Source: Nemertoderma westbladi | Lineage: Eukaryota; Animalia; Xenacoelomorpha | Length of the DNA stretch: 34,458 nucleotides | Direction: 5' to 3' | NCBI GenBank assembly: GCA_032718475.1 | Contig: JAUCBJ010005818.1 | Span: 1 to 34,458 of the forward strand | Part shown: positions 1 to 25,548 of the stretch, piece by piece | How positions within the stretch are numbered: the first letter of the stretch is position 1 | Layout of the letters: every line of letters starts with the position of its first letter | The notes under the pieces: model-generated | What the model was told of the DNA's origin: nothing | The model's input: the letters and a program-made list of their open reading frames with translations, nothing else | Databases searched by the model: none | Position numbers and translations under genes: made by a program

Positions 1-1240
1 TATATATTATGCGGAGGCTGACGATTGGTTATATAGATGGTACATTCGCCACTACAAATAATGAGAAAGCAACTTTGTTAAATGAGTAGGCTATTTTCAT
101 AGTGCTTTTACAGTTGAAGGACCTGAGTAATATTTCTAGCCTTTCCTCCTACTCAACCAACTCAACCAAAAACTCTCCTCAATTTCATTCACCACAGACA
201 GACAGAATCCAGAATCAGTCACAAAAGCCATACAGTCAGTACGTGTACAGGAAATGAAAAGTCCCAGTGCCCCTGGCTGCCTGGCCCTGATTCCATATAC
301 TGATATATCCACAGGTCATAAAGGAATTTGCTGATTCAGTCGCCCATCCACTTGCTATTCTATTCCAAAAGTCTATGGATGAAGGTATACAGGCAGACAG
401 GTATAGCAGTATAGTTCCAGCAGAATGGAAATTGGCAAATCTGCAAATATCTGAATATATCTCCGCAGTTCAAGAATGGAAATAAATATGATAAAGAAAA
501 CTACCGGCAGATTAGCTTAACCTCATTCTGTCAGTTGTGTGTAAGCTTATGCTGTTATGGCAGTATGGAGCGCAACATAGCATCTGTCACATATGAATTT
601 TTAAAGGAAAACAGACGTCTTTCTGACCAACAGTATGGCAGTATGGGTTTCTTAAAGGACGGCAGGACGGTCATGTACACTGCAACTACTGGATGCCATA
701 TTTAACTGGTATAAGGTTCTTGATGACCGACAATGTATTGACGTTGCCTTTTTAGACTTTCGTAAAGCGTTTGATTCTGTCCCGTCACATCAACGTCTAC
801 TCCTCAAATTGAAGTCATTGGGGATAGCTGGCAACCTTTTGAAGTGGATTAGTTCGTTTTTATCTGGTAGATACCAACGAGTAGTAATTGGTGGTGAACA
901 TTCTACATGGCTATCAGTTGATAGTGGGGTTCCCCAAGGAAGTGTCGATGGGGTACTATTTTTCTTGGGATTTGTAGACGACCTGACGACATTCCTGCAC
1001 TCCTAGGGCATTTGGCATACTTGTTCGCTGATGACTTAATAGACTCTGCTGTAGTGGATCCCTCTATTAAACTCTCCGTGGGTGGAATACGCATCTCCAG
1101 TTTGGTCACCCAGCCATGTAGGAGAAATCCGCCTACTTGAGTCTGTTCAACGTCGGGCTACCCGTTTGGTAGTGGGCCTTCGTGACCTTCCATATCCGGA
1201 CCGAACAGCCGATTGCGTCGCTTGGGACTACCTACTCTGG
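1..1240 (+). mobile_element. Degenerate CR1/L2-group non-LTR retrotransposon (LINE) ORF2/RT fragment, 5' part
   Basis: After removing small insertions the frame reads as typical CR1-group RT: LLNEYFHSAFT, KSAPGPDSIYP, DEGIVPAEWKLANISP, ENYRQISLTSVVCKLME, QQYGFLKGRSC, DVAFLDFRKAFDSV, SGVPQGS, YLFADD, then after an internal deletion EYASPVWSP...LESVQRRATRLV...LGLPTL. Many frameshifts; the 5' end may extend beyond the window. Confidence 0.9.
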
Positions 1241-3172
1241 CAGTCGGTGAGAAGTCAAAAATTGGACTTGAGTCCAAAATTGGACTTCGACTCCAGTTCA
1301 AGTCCAAAATTGGACTTCTGTGAGTCCAATATTGGACTTCAAATCAGCCAATTGTTCCAGGGCCTTGGGTAATAGGATCGGGCGGGATTTTTTTTCTTTA
1401 ATCGAAAATATATCAAAAAATAAGAGTTTTGAACAGGGGGACCTGAAATTCACCAGGGGGAACGTTTTTTATAAGGCTTTGAATTTTTACAAAAGTCCAA
1501 TATTGGACTTTAAGTCCAATTTTGGACGTGACATTGAGAATCGAACTTAAAGGTACATGAAGCATGACAGATGAGAGACAGCCAGACAGCTGTTAGTGTT
1601 AAGTTATGGAAAGTTACCTTTGCAGCTCTGTATGTATCTTCAGTGTACTGACTGTACTGTACTTAGAATATAATAGTACATTCTAGCATTCTAGGTACTT
1701 TGTACTTTACTTTTAGCATATTGTTTAGTTCACAATTTACATTCATGTTATGTCTAACCTTACAGCCTTATGTACCCAGGACTTTATAGTGTCTTTAGGA
1801 CTAGATTAGATTATGCTCCAACAAATATTTAATTACAAATTATATTTGGTGGATACTGGTAGCAATGCCAGGTTAGCCAACTGCAGCTGCTGCTAAGGCT
1901 AACTACAATACAAGCTACGATTTCGTCTAAGGCTATGGGAGCCCTATCAGAAAGAAATACTACAAGTTGATGCTACCACCATCTCTTCTAATTTTTCCAT
2001 ACAACAGGAAGGGTATTATAAAACAGCTGGATATCAGGATAATGAAATGGGATTAGTAACTGATTAACGCGTTGGCGTCTCCACATAATAAGTACAGAAG
2101 TAACAAGTAACACACGTCATAATCATAAACCAATTGAGGGAAAGGAACATATTACAGAGGCAGGCTTTTCTAACTAAAACAATAAACGGCCACTTTTGAC
2201 TTTACCAATTGAAGGAGCCCTATAACCTCACCACATACTACTACTACAATCGGCATGATTCATTGCAGCTGCATTATATATAGCAGTATAGGCCCTATTA
2301 TGTATTAAGAATGCTGTGCCGGCTTGTTGACAAAAGTTCGCCTCCACAACTCCCTTACACTCTTACAGCCTTATCACCCATGACATTTGCTAGATCATCC
2401 GCATCTTCAAGGCCAGTGTCCTTTTAAGACAGTAAGAAAGATGCGTCTCAAGAAAGTCATGGGCTGTCCACCATGCTTATTCACTCCATGGGGTGCACTG
2501 GCTGGTCCTCACGGCTTAAAGCGATGTCCTGCAAAGCGGAGGCGGCTTTGTTCTAGTGTCAAGCTTGGGGGAACCAATGACTGAATGAGACACCTCCAAC
2601 TCCAATGTTATATAGTGTCTGGTTGGAGATGCAGAGATGTGTGCATTGTACTTGACACAGTGCTGCAGTGAAGTGAACCTAATCAAAACAATTAGTCTGT
2701 AGTCAATAAACATTAACTCAATAACATAATAGGTTACAGTTTACAGTTAGTCTTATTTTTGCCATACCGTACGAAAATACCACAGGTATTGCAGTATGGG
2801 TATGAATGAACTATACAGCTATAAATCAACTACGCTACCAAGGTATACACCGCTAAGGCAGTAAGGCTACCGCAAAGCTATACCACTACCGCAAAAAGTA
2901 ACCACTAATGTCTGACTGTACGTGTGCGATCCCTGTTTATAATACATATAATAATTAATTTGATCATTAAAATAATGTTGCATTTTAATTATGTAATAGC
3001 CTATATATGTACTGATACGGGATGCAGTTTTGATTTAAATACCGATATACAGTATGGCAGCATGGGTACACTTGGAGTTGTACTAAAGTCCAATATTGGA
3101 CTTTGGAGTCCAAAATTGGACTTAAAGTCTAAAATTGGACTTGAAGTCCAATTTTTGACTTCTCACCGACTG
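1241..3172. mobile_element. Non-autonomous DNA transposon with 29-bp TIRs (CAG...CTG termini) and 5-bp TSD TCTGG, inserted in the LINE
   Basis: 1241-1269 CAGTCGGTGAGAAGTCAAAAATTGGACTT is the exact reverse complement of 3144-3172. TCTGG lies at 1236-1240 and 3173-3177. Removing the element rejoins the LINE frame as LPTL-EYRRSRADLIQLY. No transposase ORF is recognisable inside. Confidence 0.93.
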
Positions 3173-3177
3173 TCTGG

Positions 3178-3220
3178 AATACCGACGTTCTCGCGCGGAC
3201 CTTATTCAATTATATTATTA
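3178..3220 (+). mobile_element. Continuation of the CR1-like LINE after the DNA-transposon insertion
   Basis: G|AA TAC CGA CGT TCT CGC GCG GAC CTT ATT CAA = EYRRSRADLIQ, resembling the LxTLExRRxRxDLI motif near the C-terminus of CR1-group ORF2. Confidence 0.85.
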
Positions 3221-3284
3221 TTATTTATATATATTATATTATAATTATTATTATTAACTTCAGTTTTTTTTTACCGCTTTTTTT

Positions 3285-3680
3285 TTATTGAATTTGTACC
3301 GTTTTACTTTACTACTTATTTTATTTAATTTTCCCATTGGTTAAAAAATTTATATCGTATTTTCCCAGTTGTCCTATTTGTAATCACATGCTATGCAATC
3401 CGTTATGAATTAATCTGTTATCTTATTGAATTTGTACCGTTTTACTATAGTACCTGTTTTATTTAATTTCCCATTCTCAGTTGTTTTTTCTTACCTTTTT
3501 TTTAATGAATTTGTACTGTTTTACTTTACTATTGTACCTATTTTATTTAATTGTCCAGTAGTTATAGGCTACAATGTAATGTATGTATATCGTATTGTTA
3601 TGCTGTCACACATTCCGGAATCACAGTTCCCAGTTGTTCTATTTTACTCACATGTTGTGCAATCCCACTTTAATTATTTA
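3285..3680. repeat. Degenerate AT-rich direct repeats (about 3 copies of an ~80-140 bp unit)
   Basis: TGAATTTGTAC(C/T)GTTTTACT...TTTTATTTAATT recurs at about 3289, 3427 and 3506; TTCCCAGTTGT..TATTT...CACATG recurs at about 3362 and 3627. Confidence 0.6.
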
Positions 3681-4400
3681 TCTGCCACTGCTGCACTGCG
3701 TTGTACAATGTACATTATAGCCAATACATGCAATAATCATATTCTGTTTACACCGTATAGATTACTTTTATGCCATTAATTTTTATCTATTTTATCTAGA
3801 CAATCCACGGTGATATATAAACTTTTATTTAGGTTGCGCCATTTTATTGTACTATGGAGACATGCCTAAATATATGTTGTATTCTACGACCTTATTGTGT
3901 TGTTTAAATGTTTGAGTAATTCGCATATTTTTAAAGTTTAATTTCCGCTTACATCATACATATCGTGATTTATGGGACCCTATAAGTTCTTAACTTTCTT
4001 GTTCCTGTAACTTTTCATAATAATAATAATAATAATAATTATATAGTTAAAGAGCTGTTGCGTGTTTTCCAGGAAGCCAGCTGAGTAGGTAACTGATACC
4101 TGGATACCGGTACCGGTACCGGTACCCTAGCCCTGTAGCCTGTTGTGCTGTAGTGGTAGTCCTAGCTGCCTAGTGTAGTACCGGTATTATTATTACAGCT
4201 GTGCAGTACTGCAGTATTACGGTGTAGCCTGTCCTGTAGGTCTACTCGGCAGGCCTATTCAGGTATGAAACTTAATACAGCAATGATATGATATGAATAT
4301 GATCCGGGCTGACGGGTGAGGAAGTTGGTTAATCTGGTGAAATGGAGAGGCAATAAATCAGTAAATCTAAACAGTAAACAATTACAAATTACTGAATTAA

Positions 4401-5513
4401 CCCTTCCCCGGTAACGTGGGGTAAAATAATACCCCAAGGGAATTAATTTTGATATTTTTCGACAATCTCTCATATTATGTAGGCCTATGTCCAGCTTCAT
4501 AGTATCTTCCCAAAAACTTGTAATCTAACGATTGTGTGGGTCAAACCCATAAAATTTTGTTTATGAAAAATGTTATGGGCCTTTAATTTGAAAACAACTT
4601 AGTTAGGTAAGATGGGGTATAAAAATACCCCATAACGTTATGGTGATGGTTTAGTGGTACTTTGTGACTCATTTTGGTGTCATTGGAACCACAATGGCAG
4701 AATGGTCGATTTAGTTGTACTAGACTGCTAGACAGACAGCTAGAGGCATGTTTTAACTTTGACTTTTAAGACCAAATTATCAGTATTATGAAGCTACTGT
4801 ATTCTGGTATTGTGTATGGCCTGTATTTCACAAGCCAAGACTTCGGCCTAATCGCGATATGCGATAGATTGCTAAGTATATGTGAATAATTCTTATTGTA
4901 GGCTTTCTTAGTGGTGTTCTGTCCTTTTGGGTCTCATTATGGGTTCATTGTAACTGCAATAATGTATAATTTAGTTGGACAATAATCACATTTAATGACC
5001 AAATCATCAGTACTTTTGCAGTCATGGTGTAAATTTCATATTACAATTCAAGATCTTCTGCTATTGCGAGGTGATATAGGGCCTATCTGTATATATATAT
5101 ATTTCACCTTGTTGACATTTAGTCATTAGTGGTGGTATTTGACTCATTTTATGCTTCTTGGAACTGCAATGGTATACTTGACCCATAACACCACTAAAAA
5201 ACCTAAAATGAGAAACTTTCTCACACAGCTAATGCTTCACTATGATAGTATCTTGTTGCAAAACGCCCCATCGCGACATTAACGATGATCGCGATTGTAG
5301 TGGGATAACTTTTGTGGCATTGAGCGTTGGGTAGACTTCAACCAAATTGAAAAAACAAATTCACAACTTATTTTTTCACCATTTGGCAAATTCTGGGAGG
5401 GGGATTGCAAGTGTTTTTCTGTTTAATGTTACTTAAAATGTCTTATCAATTTGGGGTATAAAAATACCCCACGTTACCGGTGAAGGATAATTTTTTACCA
5501 TACCGGGGCAGGG
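4401..5513. mobile_element. piggyBac-like non-autonomous element (MITE) with TTAA TSD
   Basis: Left end: TTAA (4397-4400) followed by CCCTTCCCCGGTAACGTGGGG. Right end: TACCGGGGCAGGG followed by TTAA (5514-5517). A second, longer right-end copy CCCCACGTTACCGGTGAAGG lies at 5467-5486. Palindromic GGGGTA(W)nTACCCC subterminal motifs occur at about 4418, 4614 and 5453. CCC...GGG ends with TTAA are the piggyBac signature. Confidence 0.8.
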
Positions 5514-5562
5514 TTAAGTACCGGTACCATAATTCGATTTAAATGTTACGATAGAGGTCGGA

Positions 5563-7184
5563 ATGGACAACGTAAAACGCCGCAACGTCACCAGAACTTC
5601 GTTTAAACGGCGGTCCCGTTTGTCTGGTATCAACGATAAACTCACTCTAGAGACTGTTCTGGGACTCAACGTTACAAACAACTGCAACCTCGCGATCAGT
5701 TCAGCCGCTGGAGTTATCGCTTACCCCGCTGGTTGTGTTGTAGTCCTTCATTACTGGGGGTCCGGCTCCCAGAAACACATTGTTAATGTCTGTAGGAAAA
5801 CGGTCATATCAGTCGCCTTGACTACCGACGGCTGTAACCTAGCGACCGGGGAAAGCGGGCACCAACCGGCCGTTCGCGTTTGGTCCGTAGACGACGCCAC
5901 GGAAATCGCCGCGTTTTTCGGGCATAGTTTCGGCGTCCGTTGCGTCGCGTTCTCACCTTGCGAAACAATCGTTGTTTCTATGGGAACTGAACACGACCAA
6001 GTAATAAACGTCTGGGATTATCAAAACGAAAGTAAATTAAGTTCCGGGAAAATCTCGACTAAAGTTCTTTCTTTAGCGTTTAGTGGTTGCGGTAAATACT
6101 TAGTTACTGTCGGTTTGAGGCAAGTTCGTTTCTGGTATTTAACCGAGTCCGGTAGGTCTAGGGAGGCGGTTCCGTTGGTAAGTCGGTCCGCGTTGCTAGG
6201 GGAACAACAGTCAAACTGTTTCGTAGATGTAGGTTGCGGCCCTAACGACTCGACCTTCGCAGTGACTCGAACCGCGATTGTCTGCGAGTTTGATAAAAAT
6301 CGGTTGCTAATGAAATGGGTCGAGTTGCGGAGCGGTGAGGCCTTCTGTATCGCGGTAACCCGGCGTTACATTATGTGCGGCTGTAGCAACGGGGTCGTTA
6401 GAATTCTAGAATGTTGTAATCTTCATTACGTCAACTCGCTGCCTAAACCGCACCATCTAGGGGTTAGCGTAGCGCCTCCTAGCGGGGAGCGTACTCCCCC
6501 CAGCGGGGGCCGTAAGTATCCCGACTGCGTTGCGATCGCGTGCGACACGACGCAGACTGTTACCGTTACGGTTTACTCTGATAGCTCGCTGTACGTTTGG
6601 GATGTTTCCAACGTTCGACGCGTCGAGAAACTCGCCTCGTTTCTGTACCACACTGGGTGCGTCTGGGGTTTGGGCGTCCTGGGCGCTAGTGAAGGCGCCC
6701 CAGACGCCCGAGAATGTCCCCTACCGTCGGATTCATTCCTAACCTGCGGGGCGGATCAAACAGTCCGCGTTTGGCGTTTAAACAACGACGATATTTCCAA
6801 CCGCATCAGCAGTAAAGAATTACTCAACATCATTTACGTAGAGGACGACTCCTCCTCGGTTAGCTATCCGTCTGCAGTTAGCGACGCGTCGGACCGCTGT
6901 CGTGGTGTCCGTTGTCTGTCCGTCAGTCCGAACGGACTCCATCTCGCCACCGGAGACCGTCTAGGCGTCGTCCGCATCCACGAACTCACCTTCCTCGAAC
7001 AACGAGTCGCGATAACCGCCCACGACTCGGAGGTACAATGCCTCGCCTACTCGCCGCCCTGGCACGGTCGCAGTCTACTAGCTAGCGCCTCCCGTGACCG
7101 ACTGCTGCATATATTCGACGCCAATAACGATTACTCCCTGGTTCAGACAGTAGACGACCATTCCTCCTCTATAACTTCGACGAG
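5563..7184 (+). CDS. MAPKBP1: MAPKBP1/WDR62-family WD40-repeat protein, exon 1
   Basis: Motifs LTLETVLG, IAYPAGCVVVL, LATGESGHQPAVRVW, LPKPHHLG, SFLYHTGCVW, AHDSEVQCLAYS, LLASASRDRLLHIFD and DDHSSSIT match the MAPKBP1/WDR62 N-terminal WD40 region. The exon ends at donor AG|GTGAGG (7184/7185, phase 2). It may be a co-orthologue of both vertebrate paralogues. Confidence 0.92.
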
Positions 7185-10100
7185 GTGAGGTTATTTATCT
7201 TAAAACAGAACGACAATTTTCCGACTATTAAATTTCCCTCCAACCAGTTAATTATGGGTTCAACACCGACCAATAATGTTTTTGTTCCTTTGATTCCCCC
7301 TAAAATAAGTTGCTAAAATAACAAGCTATTCCGAAATGCAGTGGTCGTGGTCGTTTTATTTGTGTGAATAATAATTTATAATAATAATAATAAGTAATAA
7401 TTTCTGTTGGTTCTGTTTGTAATTTTTATTAAATACTGTACCGCGTACCGGCATAGCGTATACGAATAAAATAGTGTATTCGATAAAAAAAACGTGTCGC
7501 CACTAATTGTAACTCGTTTAACTCGTCACAAATTACTTTATAATGATATTCAGATGTTCTGCCCTACCACATTGGATTTTGTATTTCAGCTTTCTAAAAG
7601 GTAATAATCGGTTTCAGGGCCATCCACTCAGGGATTTTTATACTTTATGAAAGTCGCTGGTTACAGTAGTGGCTGCCTCAACCCTAATTAAAACTGTCAT
7701 GTAACCCTAACCCTCGAAAAACACAGCTTGCCAACACATTGTTACTAACCCTAAGTCAACTGACCAACTAACCCCATCCAAAATAATAAACCGAACACTG
7801 AAGCAGTCAGGTTCTCAGGTTCAGTATAAATACCAGTTTGCCTTTTCAAAAAAGTGACCAAATTTGGCACGGATAATAATTTTTACATACAAAACCAATA
7901 AAATTTCAATGCTCTGGAGTGTCCGCTGTCCGGAATGTTATAGAACGTGTTCCAATGCTCTGTAGTGTCCGCTGTCCGGTATGTTATAGAACGTGTTCCA
8001 CTGCTCTGGGGTGTCCGCTGTCCGGAATGATATAGAACGTGTTCCACTGCTCTGGGGTGTCCGCTGTCCGGTTTGTTATAGAACGTGTTCCAATGCTCTG
8101 GGGTGTCCGCTGTCCGGTATGTTATAGAACGTGTTCCACTGCTCTGGGGTGTCTGCTGTCCGGTATGTTATAGAACATGTTCCACTGCTCTGGAGTGTCC
8201 GCTGTCCGGAATGATATAGAACGTGTTCCACTGCTCTGGGGTGTCCGCTGTCCGGTATGTTATAGAACGTGTTCCAATGCTCTGGGGTGTCCGCTGTCCG
8301 GAATGATATAGAACGTGTTCCACTGCTCTGGGGTGTCCGCTGTCCGGTATGTTATAGAACGTGTTCCAATGCTCTGGGGTGTCCGCTGTCCGGAATGATA
8401 TAGAACGTGTTCCACTGCTCTGGGGTGTCCGCTGTCCGGTATGTTATAGAACGTGTTCCACTGCTCTGGGGTGTCCGCTGTCCGGAATGATATAGAACGT
8501 GTTCCACTGCTCTGGGGTGTCCGCTGTCCGGTATGTTATAGAACGTGTTCCACTGCTCTGGAGTGTCCGCTGTCCGGAATGTTATAGAACGTGTTCCAAT
8601 GCTCTGTAGTGTCCGCTGTCCGGTATGTTATAGAACGTGTTCCACTGCTCTGGGGTGTCCGCTGTCCGGAATATTATAGAACGTGTTCCACTGCTCTGGG
8701 GTGTCCGCTGTCCGGAATATTATAGAACGTGTTCCACTGCTCTGGGGTGTCCGCTGTCCGGAATATTATAGAACGTGTTCCACTGCTCTGTAGTGTCCGC
8801 TGTCCGGTATGTTATAGAACGTGTTGCACTGCTCTGGGGTGACCGCTGTCCGGAATATTATAGAACGTGTTCCACTGCTCTGGGGTGTCTGCTGTCCGGT
8901 ATGTTATAGAACGTGTTCCACTGCTCTGGGGTGTCCGCTGTCCGGTATGTTATAGAACGTGTTCCACTGCTCTGGGGTGTCCGCTGTCCGGTATGTTATA
9001 GAACGTGTTCCACTGCTCTTGGGTGTCCGCTGTCCGGTATGTTATAGAACATGTTCCACTGCTCTGGGGTGTCCGCTGTCCGGTATGTTATAGAACGTGT
9101 TCCACTGCTCTGGGGTGTCCGCTGTCCGGAATATTATAGAACGTGTTCCACTGCTCTGGGGTGTCCGCTGTCCGGTATGTTATAGAACGTGTTGCACTGC
9201 TCTGGGGTGTCCGCTGTCCGGAATATTATAGAACGTGTTCCACTGCTCTGGGGTGTCCGCTGTCCGGTATGTTATAGAACGTGTTGCACTGCTCTGGGGT
9301 ATCCGCTGTCCGGTATGTTATAGAACGTGTTGCACTGCTCTGGGGTGTCCGCTGTCCGGAATATTATAGAACGTGTTCCACTGCTCTGGGGTGTCCTCTG
9401 TCCGGAATGTTATAGAACGTGTTCCACTGCTCTGGGGTGTCTGCTGTCCGGTATGTTATAGAACGTGTTCCATTGCTCTGGGGTGTCTGCTGTCCGGTAT
9501 GTTATAGAACGTGTTCCACTGCTCTGGGGTGTCCGCTGTCCGGTATGTTATAGAACGTGTTCCACTGCTCTGGGGTGTCCGCTGTCCGGTATGTTATAGA
9601 ACGTGTTCCACTGCTCTGGGGTGTCCGCTGTCCGGAATGTAATAGAACGTGTTCCACAGCTCTGGGGTGTCCGCTGTCCGGTATGTTATAGAACGTGTTC
9701 CACTGCTCTGGGGTGTCCGCTGTCCGGTATGTTATAGAACGTGTTCCACTGCTCTTGGGTGTCCGCTTTCCGGGATGTTATAGAACGTGTTCCACTGTTC
9801 TGGGGTGTCCGATGTGTTACAGAACGTGTTCCAATGCACTGTGGTGTACGGTGTGTTCCGGAACGTGTTCCAATGCTCTGGGTTGAGCGGTGTGTTCCAG
9901 AACGTGTTCCAATGCTCTGGGGTGTCCGCTGTCCGGTATGTTATAGAACGTGTTCCACTGCTCTGGGGTGTCTGCTGTCCCGTATGTTATAGAACGTGTT
10001 CCACTGCTCTGGGGTGTCCGATGTGTTACAGAACGTGTTCCAATGCACTGTGGTGTACGGTGTGTTCCGGAACGTGTTCCAATGCTCTGGGTTGAGCGGT

Positions 10101-13100
10101 GTGTTCCAGAACGTGTTCCAATGCTCTGGGGTGTCCGCTGTCCGGTATGTTATAGAACGTGTTCCACTGCTCTGGGGTGTCCGCTGTCCGGTATGTTATA
10201 GAACATGTTCCACTGCTCTGGGGTGTCCGCTGTCCGGAATGTTATAGAACGTGTTCCACTGCTCTGGGGTGTCCGCTGTCCGGTATGTTATAGAACGTGT
10301 TCCACTGCTCTTGGGTGTCCGCTGTCCGGTATGTTGTAGAACGTGTTCCACTGCCCTGAGGTGTCCGCTGTCCGGAATGATATAGAACGTGTTCCACTGC
10401 TCTGGGGTGTCCGCTGTCCGGTATGTTATAGAACGTGTTCCACTGCTCTTGGGTGTCCGCTGTCCGGTATGTTATAGAACGTGTTCCACTGCTCTGGGGT
10501 GTCCGCTGTCCGGTATGTTATAGAACGTGTTCCACTGCTCTTGGGTGTCCGCTGTCCGGTATGTTATAGAACGTGTTCCACTGCTCTGGGGTGTCCGCTG
10601 TCCGGTATGTTATAGAACGTGTTCCACTGCTCTGGGGTGTCTGCTGTCCGGTATGTTGTAGAACGTGTTCCACTGCTCTGAGGTGCCGCTGTCCGGAATG
10701 ATATAGAACGTGTTCCACTGCTCTGGGGTGTCCGCTGTCCGGTATGTTATAGAACGTGTTCCACTGCTCTGGGGTGTCTGCTGTCCGGTATGTTATAGAA
10801 CGTGTTCCACTGCTCTTGGGTGTCCGCTGTCCGGTATGTTGTAGAACGTGTTCCACTGCTCTGGGGTGTCCGCTGTCCGGTATGTTATAGAACGTGTTCC
10901 ACTGCTCTGGAGTGTCCGCTGTCCGGAATGTTATAGAACGTGTTCCAATGCTCTGTAGTGTCCGCTGTCCGGTATGTTATAGAACGTGTTCCACTGCTCT
11001 GGGGTGTCCGCTGTCCGGAATGATATAGAACGTGTTCCACTGCTCTGGGGTGTCCGCTGTCCGGTTTGTTATAGAACGTGTTCCAATGCTCTGGGGTGTC
11101 CGCTGTCCGGTATGTTATAGAACGTGTTCCACTGCTCTGGGGTGTCTGCTGTCCGGTATGTTATAGAACATGTTCCACTGCTCTGGAGTGTCCGCTGTCC
11201 GGAATGATATAGAACGTGTTCCACTGCTCTGGGGTGTCCGCTGTCCGGTATGTTATAGAACGTGTTCCAATGCTCTGGGGTGTCCGCTGTCCGGAATGAT
11301 ATAGAACGTGTTCCACTGCTCTGGGGTGTCCGCTGTCCGGTATGTTATAGAACGTGTTCCAATGCTCTGGGGTGTCCGCTGTCCGGAATGATATAGAACG
11401 TGTTCCACTGCTCTGGGGTGTCCGCTGTCCGGTATGTTATAGAACGTGTTCCACTGCTCTGGGGTGTCCGCTGTCCGGAATGATATAGAACGTGTTCCAC
11501 TGCTCTGGGGTGTCCGCTGTCCGGTATGTTATAGAACGTGTTCCACTGCTCTGGAGTGTCCGCTGTCCGGAATGTTATAGAACGTGTTCCAATGCTCTGT
11601 AGTGTCCGCTGTCCGGTATGTTATAGAACGTGTTCCACTGCTCTGGGGTGTCCGCTGTCCGGAATGATATAGAACGTGTTCCACTGCTCTGGGGTGTCCA
11701 CTGTCCGGTATGTCATAGAACGTGTTCCAATGCTCTGGGGTGTCCGCTGTCCGGTATGTTATAGAACGTGTTCCACTGCTCTGGGGTGTCTGCTGTCCCG
11801 TATGTTATAGAACGTGTTCCACTGCTCTGGGGTGTCCGATGTGTTACAGAACGTGTTCCATTAATGCACTGTGGTGTACGGTGTGTTCCGGAACGTGTTC
11901 CAATGCTCTGGGTTGAGCGGTGTGTTCCAGAACGTGTTCCAATGCTCTGGGGTGTCCGCTGTCCGGAATGTTATAGACCGTGTTCCACTGCTCTGGGGTG
12001 TCCGCTGTCCGGTATGTTATAGAACGTGTTCCACTGCTCTGGGGTGTCCTCTGTCCGGAATGTTATAGACCGTGTTCCACTGCTCTGGGCAGTCTGGGGT
12101 GTCCGCTGTCCGGTATGTTATAGAACGTGTTCCACTGCTCTGGGGTGTCCGCTGTCCGGTATGTTATAGAACGTGTTCCACTGCTCTGGGGTGTCCGCTG
12201 TCCGGAATGATATAGAACGTGTTCCACTGCTCTGGGGTGTCCGCTGTCCGGTATGTTATAGAACGTGTTCCACTGCTCTGGAGTGTCCGCTGTCCGGAAT
12301 GTTATAGAACGTGTTCCAATGCTCTGTAGTGTCCGCTGTCCGGTATGTTATAGAACGTGTTCCACTGCTCTGGGGTGTCCGCTGTCCGGAATGATATAGA
12401 ACGTGTTCCACTGCTCTGGGGTGTCCACTGTCCGGTATGTCATAGAACGTGTTCCAATGCTCTGGGGTGTCCGCTGTCCGGTATGTTATAGAACGTGTTC
12501 CACTGCTCTGGGGTGTCTGCTGTCCCGTATGTTATAGAACGTGTTCCACTGCTCTGGGGTGTCCGATGGGTTCCAATGCTCTGGGTTGAGCGGTGTGTTC
12601 CAGAACGTGTTCCAATGCTCTGGGGTGTCCGCTGTCCGGAATGTTATAGACCGTGTTCCACTGCTCTGGGGTGTCCGCTGTCCGGTATGTTATAGAACGT
12701 GTTCCACTGCTCTGGGGTGTCCTCTGTCCGGAATGTTATAGACCGTGTTCCACTGCTCTGGGCAGTCTGGGGTGTCCGCTGTCCGGTATGTTATAGAACG
12801 TGTTCCACTGCTCTGGGGTGTCCGCTGTCCGGTATGTTATAGAACGTGTTCCACTGCTCTGTGGTGTCCCGTGTGTTCCAGAACGTATTCCTGTGCTCTC
12901 TGGTGTGTTCCAGAACGTGTTCCTATTCCAATGCTCTGGGCTGGGGTGTACCCAGAACGTGTTCAACATTATAAAACAATTATAAAACAACTTTATATCT
13001 TTACGATAATGAACTTTTGCAGAGTGAATTTAATTAATTAATTAATTCGATAGGCCTAACATATCATCATATATACATATATAATAAATATTAAACTCGC

Positions 13101-13328
13101 CTTCGTATCTTTGTATGTTTCATAACCATTCTACCAATTATATGGGTGTATATTAATTAAACTTCCAACGAAATACATTCAATAACTACAGACTACATGC
13201 TGGTAGTATAAAGTATAGGGTATACCTGGTACTGGAAGTTAAATAATGATTTCTGTTCAAATTGAAAGTTTTTACAATTACAATTATTTATACGCATACA
13301 ATTATTTATTAAATTATTTTCTTTTTAG
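7185..13328 (+). other. Single GT-AG intron (6144 bp) of the MAPKBP1/WDR62 gene
   Basis: Donor GTGAGG at 7185; acceptor TATTTTCTTTTTAG ends at 13328. The junction AG+A gives Arg and yields HSSSITSTR-FIIDSSKLLLLSCSADRTLIFR, collinear with the family sequence. Confidence 0.88.
7907..12965. repeat. 46-bp tandem satellite, about 110 units, intronic
   Basis: Unit GCTCTGGGGTGTCCGCTGTCCGGTATGTTATAGAACGTGTTCCACT repeated head-to-tail with point variants and a few shortened divergent units. Confidence 0.97.
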
Positions 13329-16300
13329 ATTTATAATCGATTCTTCTAAACTTCTCCTATTGAGTTGCTCTGCGGACAGAACTTTAATATTCCGTTGCGC
13401 CCAGCAGACACCCAACTTTCGGTTCGCACGAACCCACATAGTCACGGATAAAACCGCCGTGTACGACATGGACTCGCACAAGAGCGGCGTGTCCGTGGTT
13501 ACCGCGTGTCAGGACCGAAACGTCCGCGTTTATAACGTTAACAGCTCGCGTAGAACCAACTCGTATAGAGGCTCGGCCACGGAGGAAGGGTCGCTTCTTC
13601 GGGTTGCTATGGACCCCTCGGGGATGTACATAGCAACCGGGTCCAGCGATAAATCCATCGCTCTTCTAGAGGCGGCGACCGGGCTGGTTGTCGCGTCTAC
13701 GACGGGACATTCCGAACTCATTACCGGTTTAACTTTCAGTAACGATTGCAGACGATTGTATTCAGTATCCGCAGATGGTTGCATTATTGTCTGGCGTCTC
13801 GCCTTCTCATTGGTTAAACTGATGCATCAGAATTTATACAACCAGAAACTCGTTAAACCGGCAGTGAAACCATCGGCAACTAATCAGCCAATCACAGATG
13901 CGCTCCGGGTTACTTCCGCTAACTTATTGCCTATTTATAATGAGTGCCTAGATGATAGTCAACCAGAGGACTTCGAAACCTCGGCGAATAACTCCGAGGA
14001 GGATTTCGACTCGGTTGTTTTCGATCCCCTTAACGCTGTTGCTATGGACGACGGGAGTAGCCAATGGCGTTTCAGTATGGGTAAACTGCCCGTTTGGGCG
14101 CAGAAGGTTGTAAATAGTCCTCTTGTGTCGGTCTCGGAAACTCAACTTGTTGATTCATTTACCGACGGCGGCAGTGATGTAAAGTTATCCAGGCCTCGGG
14201 ATCTTCCATTAAATAAAGTATCAGATAGCGGGGCGGTAAATAAAGTATCAGATAGCGGGGCGGTAAATAAAGTATCAGATAGCGGGGCGGTAAATAATGT
14301 ATCAGATAGCGGGGCGGTAAATAAAGTATCAGATAGCGGGGCGGTAAATAAAGTACCAGATAGCGGGGCGGTAAATAAAGTATCAGATTGCGGGGCGGTA
14401 AATAAAGTACCAGATGGCGGGGCGGTAAATAAAGTATCAGATAGCGGGGCGGTAAATAAAGTATCAGATAGCGGGGCGGTAAATAAAGTATCAGATAGCG
14501 ATGGGGCGATAAATAAATTATCAGATAGCGATGAGGCGGTAAATAAAGTCAAGTCGATAAAGTCAATTCCAGGTAATAATTCAGTTGAATCCGGCTTTAT
14601 CGATCCTCTTCATCCGGTTGTCGATGACAGCGACACCGATGAGGCCGACTTTATTGTGGAGGAATCGGTTAATAGTTCGGAAGATTTGCGGGAATTCGGC
14701 AACGATTGCAGCCCAGAATGTTGGAACTACGAGATCCCGGAGAGTCAGGATAAAACCCCGGAGATTTTATTCTCCCGCGCGCCGGACGACGTCCCGCTAG
14801 AGGGCGACGTCCCGCTAGAGGGCGACGATTCTCTGTTCCTCGAGGATTCCTCGGCGACCCCCGTCCGGATGGGTTCCTCGCGGCGGCTGAGTCTGTCGTC
14901 CCGGTATCTGTGTCAGTTAAACCGGACGTTGTCCTCCGGTTCCCCCACAGTCGCCTCCCAATCGGTAGCCTCGCCCCCATTACTGCAGCTCACCGAGGAG
15001 GAAGACGCCGGTTCCGATGACGTCATCGGAGGGCATCCGGTACCGGAAGTGTCGCTAACAAACAATAAGGAAGTTAATGATGAAGAAGAAGAAAGTTCTA
15101 GAATATTTAATTCGGATTCCAAACATTTAGTTTCTTTGCGACGCAGTAAAACTTTTGATCAAGGAGACCGGAAGTCGTCATTGCGTGGCAAACTGGTCCC
15201 GCCCGCGTCCCCTACCAGTCCCGGTAGGGAGTCCGTCCGTATCGTTTACAGAACCTCCACGACGTCCACCCAATCGGTATCGGTTCCCTCGTCTCCTAGA
15301 CGACACTCCATGGCGACGGAGAAACCTCGTAACGAGTCCGCGACTAATCCGACCAATAGGGGCAGCGCGTCGGGGCAACGACGAATTCGTAAGTCGGAAA
15401 GACCTTCGTCGGTTAACGAGACGAGATTCAATCGGACGAAATCCTTGATGGAGTTTAAACTCCCGTTGCCGCCCCGTTCGCGGACTCCGACGGAGTTGAG
15501 TCGGAGTCTAAGTACCGAGAGACGGTTGCCTGGATACCTGCAGACCACGGTGGCGTCGCTGGGGAAACAGTCGACGCACGCGCGTCGCAAGAAGCGGAGT
15601 TTAACGAGCGCGGAAGCCGTTGGCTCCGAGTCGGACAACGATTTATCGGTGAGTAAGGAGTTAATCCGAACCGCCTCGTTGGGAAGTCTGACGACGTCCT
15701 CCTCCCAGGGGAGTCTAACCCCGCGGCCCTGCGGCGGCGGTGTGCGACCCCGCAGCGAGTTGGGGCGGCGTCCCTCCAGCGGCGACTGGTGCGTCGCGGC
15801 GACCCACAGCGTCGACGTCACCGCTCCGTGTCAGTTCTGTATCCGACGTGAGACCGGTTTCTTTTCCGACGCCGAGTGCGACGCCGCTAGTCGTCGTAGC
15901 ACTCCTGTCGACGGCCCCGATACCGTGGTAACGGCGTGTTGCTGCGCAACCGATTGTTTACCTGTCGTTAGCGACCCCGCTGTCCCCGTTACCATGGCTA
16001 CGTGTACCCGCGCGTTGGCGGATCTCCGTTCCGCTTTAGCGGCGGCGATCTCGGTCCGTCGACGGGTTGAAGAGATTCCGAGTGTTCCGGATCGCGTCCG
16101 GATGGCGTCGGAAATGCGTTCCGGTTTCCGGAATGTCATCGAGGATCTGTCAGTTAACTCTCTGGACGGCGATTCATCGAATGAGATTCGCTATTTAGTT
16201 CGTTGCGAAGAAACGTCTGAGATTCTAGAACGGTATTCTAATTTACTCGTTCACACGGTGGAGGAAAGGTTGGGGCTCAGGGGTCCTACTGATAGCCGGG

Positions 16301-16344
16301 GTAGTCAACATGACGTTACCTTGTTACCTTCAGAGGATGAGTGA
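13329..16344 (+). CDS. MAPKBP1: MAPKBP1/WDR62-family protein, exon 2 (last WD40 repeats, low-complexity region, C-terminal helical domain)
   Basis: Contains TAVYDMD, TACQDRNVRVYN, DPSGMYIAT, GHSELITGLTFSNDCRRLYSVSADGCIIVWRL and FSMGKLPVWA. The C-terminal EILERYSNLLVHTVEERL resembles the family dimerisation helix. Spliced CDS 1622+3016 = 4638 nt = 1545 aa plus stop. Confidence 0.92.
14212..14550 (+). repeat. In-frame 27-bp coding minisatellite (NKVSDSGAV, about 12 copies)
   Basis: AATAAAGTATCAGATAGCGGGGCGGTA tandem units inside exon 2; the last two units carry a 3-bp insertion. Confidence 0.95.
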
Positions 16345-16361
16345 ATGACGTCATTACGGAC

Positions 16362-17325
16362 GATTATAAATAAATAAGCTGTGAAATTATTTTAGTTTTT
16401 GGTTGAAGTAATCTTGGCGCTCAACGCCATCAAAGTTATCCTGTTACAGGTATCGGTGGGGATTGGCCTTGATGCAGTAAAATTCATCCCTCTCCAGGGG
16501 ATTCCTATTAAATAACTGCTGATAACTGCTGTTGTTTATTGTTTTGGTTAGAATAACGTGCCACTGTAACCTAATCCTCTCCCTTTAATTGATAATTTAA
16601 CTTTGAGACGAGATATTAATTTGCCGAGATGGGATTTGTGTCTATACCCCCCCCCCCCCCACACCCCTCCCCTCCCCGTCTCAAGTTTTCATAGAATGGC
16701 GTATATTACACCCAGTGGGCTACAGCGCGAAAATTATTGATATTGTTGATTATTCTTTCTTCCTGATTGATATCTGGCTCATATTTTCTGACCCCGGGAG
16801 ACAGGGGGAAACTTGACAAATTCAATCTCGAATTAATATTTAGATTTATTTATTAAGGGAAAAGAGCAGTTTACAGTGTGCCACGTTATTCTAACCAAAT
16901 CAAATAAAGGAAAATCAATAGAACAGGTTACAGTTATATTTTTGGAGTAATCAACTGTTATTTGGGTCCATTTTCCCCTGGAGGGGGATGAATTTTAATT
17001 GTGTCGAAAGTCCCCCCCCCCCCCATTTGACCCCAGACTTTAGTTTTTCTGAGGTCTTAACCATCAGCAGTTTCTCTATCTGCCACTACGAAGTCAAAGT
17101 GATAAGGGGAATTTGCATATATTTTGCTTATAATTTTTTCGAGTTGACAATTAATATAAATTTATGTCACGTGCTGCGCGAAGGCCCCACTTAGTGTATC
17201 ATTCTATTTAAACGGTAGTGAAAGTCAGACAGTACCTTCTGGAATAAGGCTTTGTGACGAGGAACGAGGAAGGCTTTTTCCTTTATCCAATATAAACAAA
17301 TTTTCACAGCTCATTTTTTATAATC
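16362..17325. mobile_element. Degenerate fold-back (long inverted repeat) element / MITE
   Basis: Three nested inverted matches: 16362-16393 vs 17294-17325 (imperfect); 16478-16501 vs 16974-16997 (23/24); 16543-16560 vs 16882-16899 (18/18). No TSD identified. Confidence 0.65.
16369..16374 (+). terminator. Candidate polyadenylation signal of the MAPKBP1/WDR62 gene
   Basis: AATAAA about 25 nt after the TGA, followed by a T/GT-rich tract (TTTTAGTTTTTGGTT). Confidence 0.45.
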
Positions 17326-17362
17326 TGATACATCTTGCGCGGGGCACCCGGTTTCGTTAGTA

Positions 17363-17981
17363 TATTCAGTATACCGTATACCTTTAGTGCTGTTATTCAG
17401 TATACCGTCTACCTTTTCTGCTGTTATTCAGTATACCGTCTACCTTTTCTGCTGTTATTCAGTATACCGTCTACCTTTAGTGCTGTTATTCAGTATACCG
17501 TCTACCTTTAGTGCTGTTATTCAGTATACCGTCTACCTTTTCTGCTGTTATTCAGTATACAGTCTACCTTTACTGCTGTTATTCAGTATACCGTCTACCT
17601 TTTCTGCTGTTATTCAGTATACCGTCTACCTTTACTGCTGTTATTCAGTATACCGTCTACCTTTTATGCTGTTATTCAGTATACCGTCTACCTTTACTGC
17701 TGTTATTCAGTATACCTTCTACCTTTACTGCTGTTATTCAGTATACCGTCTACCTTTTCTGCTGTTATTCAGTATACCGTCTACCTTTACTGCTGTTATT
17801 CAGTATACCGTCTACCTTTAGTGCTGTTATTCAGTATACAGTCTACCTTTACTGCTGTTATTCAGTATACCGTCTACCTTTACTGCTGTTATTCAGTATA
17901 CAGTCTACCTTTACTGCTGTTATTCAGTATACCGTCCACCTTTAGTGCTGTTATTCACTATACCGTATACCTTTAGTGCTG
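17363..17981. repeat. 31-bp tandem minisatellite, about 20 copies
   Basis: Unit TATTCAGTATACCGTCTACCTTT(AG/TC/AC)TGCTGT. Confidence 0.97.
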
Positions 17982-19519: not shown

Positions 19520-19745
19520 ATTTGACGCAAATCCCTCTCGGCGAATTATTATCTCGCCTTAAGCTAAATATCAATTTAAGGGAAAGGAGCAGGTTACGGT
19601 GGCACGTTATTCTAACCAAAATAATAATCGAAAGTCATAGAATAGGTTACAGTTTTATTTTTGAAAGTAATCAGATGTTATTTGCGTCGATTTACCCAGG
19701 AGAGGGGTGAATTTTTATTGCGTCGATAGTCCCCCCCCCCCCCCT
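19520..19745. mobile_element. Solo arm of the same repeat family as the 16.4-17.3 kb fold-back element
   Basis: Shares TTAAGGGAAA.GAGCAG.TTAC.GT..CACGTTATTCTAACCAAA (19603-19620), AGAA.AGGTTACAGTT and GGAG.GGG.TGAATTTT...GTCGA.AGTCCCCCC with 16850-17020 in the same orientation. Confidence 0.7.
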
Positions 19746-20928: not shown

Positions 20929-21421
20929 ACTACTACTAGGTCGAGCGAACTAGGACAGTGGAAATGAGATCCTTCCAGGTTTCCCGATTCTCCATAGTTG
21001 TCGCAATTTCGTTTCTCCCAAGTTCAGTATCCCTTCCAAGTTGATCTATATATGTTAAAGCCGGTCGTCCACGACTACGCTTACCATGAGTTGGTTGCCA
21101 GAGAAGTAGATCTGGTATGACCTCGTCTTTACTCCACCAGCAGTGCCCACTGAATCTTAATCTGCGTTCACGGAGGGTGGTTGATACAGGTGGTATTGTA
21201 CCATAAAGCTCGGCGTTTGTCATGTGTTGTCTCCAGCTGATGTTTAGGGATGCCCTTAGTAGTCTTGTGTAGCAACCATCAATTCGTTGTTCAAGTGATT
21301 TAGCCAGTGTCCAGGTCTCACCCCCGTATAAAAATACACTTTCCACTGTGGCTCGAAAGAACTTAGTCTTCAGGTGCCTGGAGAGATCTGATTTCCAGAT
21401 GGTATCCATTTTTGATAGTAC
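20929..21421 (-). mobile_element. 5'-truncated RTE-clade LINE with 13-bp TSD and (TAG)n tail
   Basis: Translation FFRATVESVFLYGGETWTL...IDGCYTRLLRASLNISW...RERRLRFSGHC...RGRPALTYIDQL is the RTE ORF C-terminus. The stop runs into TAGTAGTAG. The direct repeat ATTTAAATGTACT lies at 20916-20928 and 21422-21434. Confidence 0.9.
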
Positions 21422-21883
21422 ATTTAAATGTACTTTTTTATATTTACAACAAATTCTTCTGAAGTCTGCCCACATATTAGACCGTCACAGTAAATCTCTT
21501 GGGTAATGGAATGCAAGCAGTATAGTAAAGCTTTACTTACATAATTGTAAGTCACAATATATAATTAATTATAGCAAATTACAAACAGCTGCAATATATG
21601 GTGGGTCATATCAGGAACGTAATAACAATGTCGTAGTAATTCATATATTTATTTATATTATTTGTATAGCGTGATAATAATATTACTGATTAACATCCAA
21701 TATGCATTGCTGTATGTCACCAACATTAATAGGCAAACATTAATTATTTATGTTTCAATAAAATTAAAATAGTTCTATATATCAAAGAGCCCCCGTAACC
21801 TATTTCAGTACAAAATAGTCTAAGAAACTATTAACCTCAATAAATATAAACAATTTAATATTATTAACTAATTTGAGATTATT

Positions 21884-22540
21884 ATGACCTCTAAACCTGT
21901 TCTGTACTCTTACTACCGCAGTTCTTGTTCATATCGTGTGCGAATCGCCCTCAATATAAAAGGAATAGATTACGATTACCGACCAGTTAATATGCTCAAA
22001 GATGGTGGGGAACAGTACACAGATGGATTCTCTGAGCTTAACCCAATGAAACAGGTTCCAGTGTTGATAGACAAGGGTCACACACTCACCCAATCACTGC
22101 CAATTATCGAATATCTGGAGGAAACACGTGAGGGGCCTAAACTTCTTCCAGAAGACCCGCTGTCGCGCGCCACCGTGCGGCAAGTTGCTGAAATAATAGC
22201 GGCAGGTATTCAACCGATACAAAATCTTAAAGTAATCCGCAAGGTGGTGCAATTAACTGGAAGGGAAGATGTGAAACCAGAATGGGGTAACCATTGGATA
22301 GATGAAGGATTTAAAGCTTTGGAGGTGATTCTTATTAGTTGTTCTGGAATGTATTGTGTTGGAGACAGTCTCTCATTGGCTGATGTGTGTTTGGTTCCTC
22401 AGGTGTACAACGCTTTACGCTACAAGGTGGATATGGAAAAATTCCCGGTTATAAAACGTATAAATGAGAAGCTAAAAAAGTTGAAACCTTTTATAGATGC
22501 CAGTCCAGATCGACAACCGGACTGCCCGAAAGGGGTATAA
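21884..22540 (+). CDS. GSTZ1: Glutathione S-transferase zeta / maleylacetoacetate isomerase (218 aa, intronless)
   Basis: Zeta signature LYSYYRSSCSYRVRIAL, plus LNPMKQVP, LTQSLPIIEYLEE, GIQPIQNL, SLADVCLVPQVYNA and terminal PDRQPDCP; full length and uninterrupted. Confidence 0.96.
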   Translation: MTSKPVLYSYYRSSCSYRVRIALNIKGIDYDYRPVNMLKDGGEQYTDGFSELNPMKQVPVLIDKGHTLTQSLPIIEYLEETREGPKLLPEDPLSRATVRQVAEIIAAGIQPIQNLKVIRKVVQLTGREDVKPEWGNHWIDEGFKALEVILISCSGMYCVGDSLSLADVCLVPQVYNALRYKVDMEKFPVIKRINEKLKKLKPFIDASPDRQPDCPKGV

Positions 22541-24626: not shown

Positions 24627-25344
24627 GACCCCCTATGTCCCTAATCTGTACAAGAAAATAATCAATAGATGCAAAACACGCATTCTGAAAAAATAATCAG
24701 TTTTATTTTTTACTGGTTGTCTCGGTAGTGTGTTGATGAAGAGCTGCCGCACTGCGGTAGGTTTGTCCCTTTTGTTTCGATACCTGATCCAGAGGTAATG
24801 CAGCTTGGCTTCGTATAATGCTCTAACTAATAACAGAGTTTCCAGAAGGTTCCAGAAGATACCTATCTATCTATTACCATCAAAAGCTATGACTGGTATA
24901 AACTCATAAGTACCGTACTACTGCGATATTATACAAGGAAAATAATTTCATGCCATATGTTATGGAGCTAGTCATTTCAATAATAATGCCTGTAGTGCAA
25001 TTGTATTCCTTCAATCGACACTCTTTTAATAAAGTTTACGCAAGGGAAATATAATATGATGTCAATATAGTTAGAGCTACTGCACAATCATTTCCCAACC
25101 ATGTGCTTTCCTCTACTCTTATGTCAGGTTTACAGGACTTTGTTTCTTCCACAATTGCGAACTTTGTACGTTACAGTTGTTATCAATCTTTATTTTCATG
25201 GTGAACCAGCACTCCCTGCCTATATCTTTCATGAATTATACTCTTTTCATTAATAATATATTAATTAGTAAAAGGTGTTTGAATTAGGCCATATAATTAA
25301 TTATTGTTTCATTAATATTTTATAGCAGTCAAATAAAACTGTTT

Positions 25345-25419
25345 GTACCTGAAAGTCAGAAAGGGCATTGTACCATATCTACAGTCAGTGGTACAATGCC
25401 CTTTCTGACTTTCAGGTAC
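25345..25419. repeat. Perfect 31-bp inverted repeat with 13-nt loop
   Basis: GTACCTGAAAGTCAGAAAGGGCATTGTACCA (25345-25375) is the exact reverse complement of 25389-25419. Confidence 0.9.
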
Positions 25420-25423
25420 TAAC

Positions 25424-25548
25424 AAAAAAATATCTCAAACATGACATCATGGAGATCATCTTGTCTCACTGATCAATGCTGGAGGTTACTGTATATTCTA
25501 CAGTAGCCTCCAGCATTGATCAGTGATGTAATGTTTGAGCTATTTTTT
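25424..25548. repeat. Second long inverted repeat (28-bp core with one G-U, 5-nt loop, extended basal stem)
   Basis: TCACTGATCAATGCTGGAGGTTACTGTA (25466-25493) pairs with 25499-25526. AAAAAATATCTCAAACATGACATCA pairs imperfectly with TGATGTAATGTTTGAGCTATTTTTT beyond a ~19-nt bulge in the left arm. Confidence 0.88.

What the first reader, a model, noticed from the sequence alone, without database searches (positions are those of the whole stretch)
194..4811. Dense field of NNNNN-C(A/T)G-NNNNN scars: candidate excision footprints of an unusual 5-bp-TSD transposon family
Seen: about 22 perfect 5-bp direct repeats separated by exactly CAG or CTG. They are ACAGA(194), CCTGG(272), ATATA(295), ACAGG(389), TATAG(402), CAAAT(436), AATAT(446), TTATG(547), TATGG(556), TATGG(634), GACGG(658), ACAGC(1578), TATAG(2279), TAAGG(2854), CACTG(3686), GATAC(4095), TAGCC(4128), CCTAG(4161), CAGTA(4204), AATGG(4693), CTAGA(4720) and GTATT(4799). 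One-mismatch cases occur at 523, 1201 and 3053. Under uniform base composition chance gives (2/64)x(1/1024) per site, well under one in 5 kb. In the LINE, deleting each 8-bp unit restores conserved RT codons (APGPDSIYP, LANISP, CKLMER, LKGRSC, DRLRRLG), so they are insertions. The resident element at 1241-3172 begins CAG, ends CTG and has a 5-bp TSD, which is exactly what would leave TSD-CWG-TSD. Known: Sleeping Beauty-type Tc1/mariner elements leave TA-CWG-TA but use TA targets; the 5-bp-TSD groups I know (Transib, hAT5) belong to superfamilies that hairpin the flanking DNA and are not expected to leave element ends behind. Inference: a cut-and-paste system combining a variable 5-bp TSD with 3-nt staggered end cleavage, possibly undescribed.
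Basis: partly seen in the sequence, partly recalled or inferred. Interest (0 to 1): 0.92.

Follow-up and report, generated by a model that had tools for sequence, protein, structure and literature searches.

The report
Five-base transposon scars with CAG/CTG core
About five kilobases of an invertebrate genome hold over thirty 8-base insertions shaped as a duplicated 5-base site around CAG or CTG, most likely scars left when a jumping gene with CAG…CTG ends cut itself out, which would be a cutting pattern not found in the papers searched, though the enzyme was not found.

Summary
Confirmed, and stronger than reported. Window 194-4811 holds 32 perfect N5-C(A/T)G-N5 words (16 CAG, 16 CTG; 0.17 expected), one more nested, and one hit in the other 29.6 kb. 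A length-blind alignment of the host LINE to 22 relatives finds twelve 8-bp units. Contigs from sister copies lack the tested LINE scars and show the empty site of the resident 1,932-bp CAG…CTG element with an exact 5-bp duplication. Some scars inside that element sit in high-depth family contigs, so they were inherited from a master copy. Best reading: excision footprints of this multicopy family, cut three bases inside its ends as Sleeping Beauty is, but with a variable 5-bp target. It fails Tc1/mariner (TA target) and Transib (CAC ends); hAT5 fits target length and ends, but not the footprint expected from the hAT hairpin. No transposase was found and no genome was held, so the family is unassigned. 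Ten paper searches found no such footprint; Repbase Reports were not readable. This scan noted TA-type CAG/CTG scars on other DNA, but five look-ups showed none with a variable 5-bp repeat.

The parts
194..990 (.). 12 perfect N5-CWG-N5 scars in the LINE (194, 272, 295, 389, 402, 436, 446, 547, 556, 634, 658, 978), one nested (385) and one imperfect (523)
   Evidence: Length-blind alignment puts insertions of 8, 24, 16, 8, 16, 16, 8 bp at these sites between 280 and 1035; 194 and 272 lie outside that alignment. Family contigs are shorter by 27 (=8+8+3+8) over 586-1071 and by 8 over 978.
1201..1213 (.). One-mismatch scar CCGAA-CAG-CCGAT in the LINE
   Evidence: Contigs over 1075-1235/1240 are 8 letters shorter in runs X1, X2 and X3.
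280..1240 (+). Decayed non-LTR retrotransposon (LINE) reverse-transcriptase region, host of the scars; by eye it begins near 40, and it resumes after 3177
   Evidence: PF00078 E=2.7e-08; 327 relatives at E<=1e-10, best 63% identity; alignment 280-1035; joint 1235->3173.
1236..1240 (.). Left target-site duplication TCTGG
   Evidence: empty-site joint skips 1937 = 1932+5 with 5 letters fitting either side.
1241..3172 (.). Resident non-autonomous TIR element, 1,932 bp, CAG...CTG, multicopy, no transposase domain seen
   Evidence: Summed contig depth 10^3-10^4 against 13-84 over window 1-214. Longest stop-free frame within it 92 aa; 3 frames scanned, no Pfam hit.
1241..1269 (+). Left terminal inverted repeat (29 nt), followed by 18-nt palindromic repeats at 1270, 1300, 1322, 1493, 1512
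3144..3172 (-). Right terminal inverted repeat (29 nt), preceded by palindromic repeats at 3086, 3106, 3125
3173..3177 (.). Right target-site duplication TCTGG
1578..2866 (.). 10 perfect scars inside the element (1578, 1758, 2090, 2279, 2425, 2576, 2627, 2658, 2811, 2854) plus imperfect ones (2030, 2787; also 3053)
   Evidence: Absent from at least one family contig or consensus loose end: 1758, 2425, 2576, 2627. Present in high-depth contigs: 2030, 2787, 2811, 3053. Others untested or ambiguous.
2130..2675 (.). Very high-copy repeat nested in the element (limits approximate); carries 5 of the perfect scars
   Evidence: Summed depth up to 1.17 million.
3686..4399 (.). 7 perfect scars in the right flank (3686, 4095, 4128, 4161, 4204, 4354, 4387)
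   Evidence: not tested against reads.
4397..5517 (.). TTAA-flanked inverted-repeat element (piggyBac-like by recalled end rule) holding 3 perfect scars (4693, 4720, 4799)
   Evidence: Arms 4397-4413/5501-5517, 94% complementary; scars not tested against reads.

Best explanation
The 8-base insertions are real and are most likely excision footprints of the multicopy CAG…CTG element family, whose insertion duplicates a variable 5-base target and whose unidentified transposase is predicted to cut one strand three bases inside each end. Shown: the words, their nature as insertions into a LINE, the 5-bp duplication and empty site of the resident element, and its CAG/CTG ends. Inferred: insertion makes N5-element-N5; excision leaves a 3-nt 3' overhang CAG on each flank; the overhangs pair C:G and G:C with an A:A mismatch in the middle; end joining then gives N5-CAG-N5 or N5-CTG-N5 equally often, and occasional trimming gives N5-(CA/AG/CT/TG)-N5. 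The pile-up is inferred to come from repeated insertion and re-excision near or inside copies of the element itself; open chromatin upstream of the neighbouring gene is the alternative. I put 'footprints of such a family' at about 0.9 and the Sleeping Beauty-like cut at about 0.7.
For: 32 vs 0.17 expected, only k=5, only CWG. CAG:CTG = 16:16, as symmetric repair of a central mismatch predicts. 30 distinct 5-mers among 32; 1 of 32 is preceded by its own spacer and none followed by it, so these are not plain 8-bp tandem copies. 7 of 8 insertions found blind in the LINE are multiples of 8. LINE family contigs lack scars 634, 658, 978 and 1201, and join 1235 to 3173 with a 5-letter overlap at depths 236 and 571. 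Weak palindromic target bias that TCTGG also fits: positions 2/4 M..K in 17 of 33 vs 0.26 background, p=0.0016, post hoc. Companion series: 15 of 19 period-7 loci in the field have a 2-nt piece of CAG/CTG as spacer (1.56 expected), against 7 of 24 outside (4.67 expected) (post hoc). Sleeping Beauty nicks three nucleotides inside and leaves a CAG footprint (passages, PMC7827188; PMC8151067).
Against: No transposase in the window or in any search. No site was seen in all three states (empty, filled, footprint); no footprint allele of the resident insertion appears among the 15 joints listed (125 not shown). Only one element copy with its TSD was seen. At least 4 scars inside the element are inherited, so events are fewer than words. 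The 10 right-flank scars and those in 280-585 have no family-contig test; 194 and 272 have neither alignment nor family-contig support. Short tandem duplications of other periods are also above chance inside and outside the field. Known local hopping acts over 100 kb to megabases (PMC7827188), far wider than this 5-kb field.
Confidence: 0.72

Rival explanations
1. Same footprints, different chemistry: a hAT5- or CMCT-type transposase that still hairpins the flank but nicks three bases inside the element, so CAG sits in the hairpin loop and survives opening.
For: 5-bp TSD and G at position 3 fit hAT5/hAT (PMC12730594; PMC1131882). CA..TG ends with 2-5 bp TSDs fit the CMCT clade. Subterminal repeats are present.
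Against: Described hAT and Transib elements are excised blunt or with a 1-nt 5' overhang and give variable footprints (PMC8151067). Here the spacer is fixed and independent of the target: it fits P-nucleotides on both sides in only 4 of 32.
Confidence: 0.16
2. The scars come from another family with CAG ends than the resident element, or from abortive insertions reversed at once; the resident element is a bystander.
For: CAG ends are common among DNA transposons. No direct link between a scar and this element was observed.
Against: Both the ends and the duplication length match; scars surround and fill this element and stop about 1.6 kb to its right; family contigs from other loci carry scars too.
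Confidence: 0.09
3. No transposon: slippage, templated repair insertions or assembly error.
For: Tandem duplications of 5-8 bp are above chance across the non-coding DNA of the window.
Against: A fixed CWG core between 30 different 5-mers cannot be copied from local sequence. Scar 194 is in short-read contigs of three runs (two samples) with 0-1 differences, and others are in high-depth family contigs.
Confidence: 0.03

Closest known systems
Sleeping Beauty and other Tc1/mariner footprints (PMC7827188, PMC8151067; passages read)
   Same: Three terminal bases of the element left between the target copies; CAG ends; nick three bases inside inferred here.
   Different: Target is a variable 5-mer, not TA (2-bp stagger); transposase unknown.
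hAT5 (PMC12730594, PMC9004415; passages read; the Repbase Reports original seen only as a reference entry)
   Same: 5-bp TSD; reported from invertebrates and fish; G at position 3 of the end as in hAT.
   Different: hAT excision hairpins the flank and gives variable footprints; no hAT5 footprint or terminal sequence was found in print to compare.
Transib / RAG (PMC1131882; passages read)
   Same: 5-bp TSD; the weak target bias here resembles the cCAWTGc preference of one Transib family.
   Different: End is CAG, not CAC; targets are not GC-rich (about 36% GC, worked out by hand from the matrix, background 38%); flank hairpin expected.
[quoted passage not shown]
   Same: CA..TG termini and 2-5 bp TSDs.
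   Different: Membership rests on transposase motifs that could not be tested.

Membership tests
Tc1/mariner | TA target-site duplication | tested here: not met
   30 distinct 5-mers among 32 scars, none both starting and ending in TA; resident TSD TCTGG with a 5-letter empty-site overlap.
Tc1/mariner | Footprint made of the 2-3 terminal bases of the element | tested here: met
   CAG 16, CTG 16, equal to the ends of the resident element; the link to that element is inferred.
Tc1/mariner | DDE/D transposase of the IS630-Tc1-mariner type | not testable with these tools
   No coding partner found; no genome held.
hAT5 | 5-bp TSD | tested here: met
hAT5 | hAT-type end with G at position 3 | tested here: met
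   End CAG; rule from PMC1131882. hAT5's own termini were not found in print.
hAT5 | Footprints from a flank hairpin (target-derived, variable) | tested here: inconclusive
   Not met against described hATs: spacer fixed, P-nucleotide fit 4 of 32. hAT5 footprints themselves were not found in 10 searches.
hAT5 | hAT transposase near the Blackjack lineage | not testable with these tools
   No coding partner found.
Transib | 5-bp TSD | tested here: met
Transib | CAC-starting, RSS-like termini | tested here: not met
   Terminus CAGTCGG against C at position 3.
Transib | GC-rich targets | tested here: not met
   About 36% GC in the 5-mers (by hand) vs 38% background.
CMCT clade | CA..TG termini with 2-5 bp TSD | tested here: met
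CMCT clade | C(2)C and H(3-4)H motifs in the transposase | not testable with these tools
   No coding partner found.
Kolobok / KolobokP | RR..YY termini | tested here: not met
   Ends are CA..TG; rule from PMC9587614.

The most novel reading that the evidence does not exclude
An undescribed lineage of cut-and-paste transposase joins a Sleeping Beauty-like cut three bases inside the ends to a sequence-relaxed 5-bp target, and homes to the DNA in and around its own copies, writing 8-bp frameshifting scars there at a rate approaching the point-mutation rate.
Probability: 0.3. Interest if true: 0.85.

Novelty: new variant of a known kind. Interest (0 to 1): 0.66.

Why it matters
End cleavage has been worked out for only a few eukaryotic DNA transposon groups. 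In the reviews read, those that leave their own end bases behind use TA targets, and those with 5-bp or 8-bp variable targets hairpin the flank. These scars read out a third combination directly from genomic DNA. Either a hAT5/CMCT-type enzyme has changed its cut, or a Tc1-like enzyme has changed its target, or the lineage is unnamed. The 13-mer is also a cheap, nearly background-free genome-wide marker of past transposition, which makes hot-spot and homing questions testable in any assembly.

Tried and rejected
No whole genome was held, so no genome-wide count or search for the autonomous partner. Metagenome scan with the first 16 nt of the TIR: 117 loci, none matched more than 7 of the next 13 bases, none had a scar field; chance hits. 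Viral-contig scan with a degenerate end pattern: 1 hit, inside an ORF with no inverted-repeat context; chance. Prokaryotic genomes, 25-nt TIR: 0 hits. No Pfam hit in 3 stop-free frames of the element; the other frames were listed but not scanned. A 7-bp target G-N5-C was rejected from the flanking bases; plain 8-bp tandem duplication and P-nucleotides were rejected; TA-type stacking was rejected (3 TA-CWG-TA vs 1.18 expected). My first reading of contig gap counts treated every gap as a deletion; record lengths showed that four contigs are longer than the window, so they are no evidence of absence, and 2907 is not supported as a scar. Window 429-535 had no contig cover in any run; nothing is drawn from that. 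A GSTZ1 search placed the host only as an animal-like genome with no relative above 60% identity. CpG level did not mark out the field. A supplement search for hAT5 found nothing. Unclassified 5-bp-TSD families of C. elegans are listed in PMC2817418; I saw their FASTA headers only, not their termini.
Full report
OBSERVATION. The window is animal-type DNA: a WDR62/MAPKBP1-like gene starts at 5566, and a GSTZ1-like gene has its best relatives at 60% identity or less. No whole genome was held. A scan for any 5-mer repeated around CAG or CTG gave 33 hits in 34,458 bases: 32 between 194 and 4811 and one T-run at 19126. In 1000 dinucleotide shuffles of window 1-5500 the mean was 0.169 and the maximum 3; allowing one mismatch gave 47 against 2.6. 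Repeat length 5 is the only strong signal (k=4: 4 vs 0.74; k=6-10: 0), and CAG and CTG make up 32 of the 64 5-mer repeats with a 3-nt spacer. Collapsing the perfect words exposes one nested word at 385 and leaves no other spacer pair above 1. In 13,581 bp of other non-coding, non-tandem DNA there is 1 hit against 0.30 expected.

THEY ARE INSERTIONS. I aligned unedited window 60-1240 to a profile of 22 of the 120 listed reverse-transcriptase relatives (picked mainly for length) with one cost rule for all insertion lengths. The local alignment ran from 280 to 1035 and placed eight insertions: 8, 24, 16, 8, 16, 16, 3 and 8 bp. Seven are multiples of 8 and fall on the words, twelve units in all. 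Four DNA runs of organism A (three samples, three studies) hold the region; one may be the source of the window. Only window 1-3210 was laid on their contigs, so the ten scars to the right are untested. Comparing record length with window span for the listed pieces (and table 8): a depth-521 contig over 586-1071 is 27 shorter (8+8+3+8); two contigs over 978 and three over 1201 are 8 shorter. These are other copies of the LINE family. The listed pieces are 32 of about 26,400, and gap positions are inferred from totals.

THE RESIDENT ELEMENT. 1241-3172 has 29-nt perfect inverted ends, an 18-nt palindrome repeated six times on the left and four times on the right counting the one in each TIR, and TCTGG on both sides. 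Contigs of depth 236 and 571 join 1235 to 3173, skipping 1937 = 1932 + 5 with five letters fitting either side: the empty site. Summed depth over the element is thousands to tens of thousands against 13-84 over window 1-214, so it is multicopy; depth is not a copy number. No transposase domain was seen.

RESULTS THAT TEMPER THE COUNT. Contigs of depth 1205-2281 span 2030, 2787, 2811 and 3053 without an 8-bp gap, and the majority letters at 2034 and 2790 make two imperfect words perfect. These scars belong to the family master and were copied in. One X4 contig lacks 8 bp in the 2787-2811 stretch, so sublineages differ. Others look absent from sister copies: 1758 and 2425 by length, 2576 and 2627 by loose ends. 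Four listed contigs are longer than the window and say nothing about absence; 2907 is not supported. Scar 194 is present in low-depth contigs of X1, X2 and X3 (two samples) with 0-1 differences, which argues against assembly error.

MECHANISM. Sleeping Beauty nicks three nucleotides inside the element, leaving 3-nt 3' overhangs on the donor that end joining turns into a CAG footprint (passages of PMC7827188; PMC8151067). The same geometry with a 5-bp stagger predicts N5-CAG-N5 or N5-CTG-N5 in equal numbers; 16 and 16 are seen. The spacer does not depend on the target: 30 distinct 5-mers among 32, a P-nucleotide fit on both sides in 4 of 32, and 1 of 32 preceded by its own spacer. Trimmed products appear to accompany them: 15 of 19 period-7 loci in window 1-4900 carry CA, AG, CT or TG (1.56 expected) against 7 of 24 outside (4.67 expected); 8 of 10 period-6 loci carry C or G (2.13 expected) against 10 of 15 outside (6.23 expected) (post hoc, low-complexity and long tandem loci skipped). 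Targets show a weak palindromic bias (five tests with p 0.0016-0.03, two null, all post hoc). Over the 647 LINE bases covered by family contigs there are 4 scars beside 14 substitutions; 9 more units lie in 280-585, so scar formation here has approached the substitution rate. Why the field is so local is open. It ends about 1.6 kb right of the element and 750 bp before the gene's start codon; its left limit is beyond the window. Scars in the family master favour attraction to the element itself, but promoter chromatin is not excluded, and published local hopping acts over 100 kb or more.

COMPARISON. It works like a Tc1/mariner footprint but fails the TA target. Transib has 5-bp TSDs but C at position 3 and GC-rich targets; hAT ends have G at position 3 (passages of PMC1131882). 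hAT5 has 5-bp TSDs and lies near Blackjack (passages of PMC12730594; PMC9004415). hAT and Transib hairpin the flank and Tol2 footprints are variable. The CMCT clade has CA..TG ends and 2-5 bp TSDs. Kolobok ends are RR..YY (passages of PMC9587614). Repbase classes non-autonomous elements by TSD length and the first 11 bases (passages of PMC4455052); I could not run that comparison. PMC2817418 lists unclassified 5-bp-TSD families in C. elegans (passages; supplement 2 read whole; file 3 headers only). Passages of PMC6004678, PMC12512617, PMC5753468 and bioRxiv 10.64898/2026.07.01.735963 added nothing. The piggyBac end rule and the typical Tc1 start CAGT are recalled, not from a call.

NOT IN PRINT? 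Ten full-text searches returned no listing that describes a 5-bp duplication around retained CAG/CTG; most hits were seen as listings only. Repbase Reports (hAT5, 2007), Yuan and Wessler 2011, Hickman 2010 and Hencken 2012 were not held, and bioRxiv supplements are closed; a Repbase entry could already hold this family. Five look-ups in the scan's own notes showed TA-type CAG/CTG scars in other genomes and one CAG...CTG micro-element with a 5-bp target in a giant virus, none tested here, and no variable 5-bp scar field.

VERDICT. Observation confirmed; footprint reading about 0.9; Sleeping Beauty-like cut about 0.7; family unassigned. New variant of a known kind; interest 0.66.

Noticed in passing
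window 5566-16344: WDR62/MAPKBP1-like gene in two long frames, apparently one intron (the Pfam domain runs 183 to 185 across it), with high CpG; the intron holds a 5-kb array of a 46-bp unit. The GSTZ1-like gene (21884-22540) is a single frame too: an intron-poor animal genome.
   Followed up: partly
window 2130-2675: Repeat of extreme depth (up to 1.17 million) nested in the element; contigs go back from about 2660 to 2236 and by 59-60 bp at 2187, suggesting tandem forms. Related stretches lie at 16529-16597 and 19566-19634.
   Followed up: no
window 4397-5517: TTAA-flanked element with palindromic subterminal repeats, ending about 50 bp before the WDR62-like start codon, so it occupies the likely promoter region.
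   Followed up: partly
window 2995-3003, 4095-4127: Other scar-like words: a 5-bp insertion reading TA-GCC-TA relative to family contigs and a GGTACC palindrome run; TAGGCCTA and TA-CWG-TA are modestly above chance in the window.
   Followed up: partly
window 28297-31386: Single-frame 1029-aa protein with weak LRR similarity and about 35 copies of a 15-aa Ser/Thr-rich repeat.
   Followed up: no
window 25340-25424 and 25466-25526: Two adjacent near-perfect hairpins (36-nt and 28-nt arms).
   Followed up: no
window 33634-34458 and 20936-21484: Broken LTR-retrotransposon RT/RNase H fragment at the window end and a second LINE-like fragment on the minus strand.
   Followed up: no
window 17340-17980, 23120-24630, 25830-26075: Further tandem arrays (about 31-bp, 20-bp and 42-bp units by eye).
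   Followed up: no
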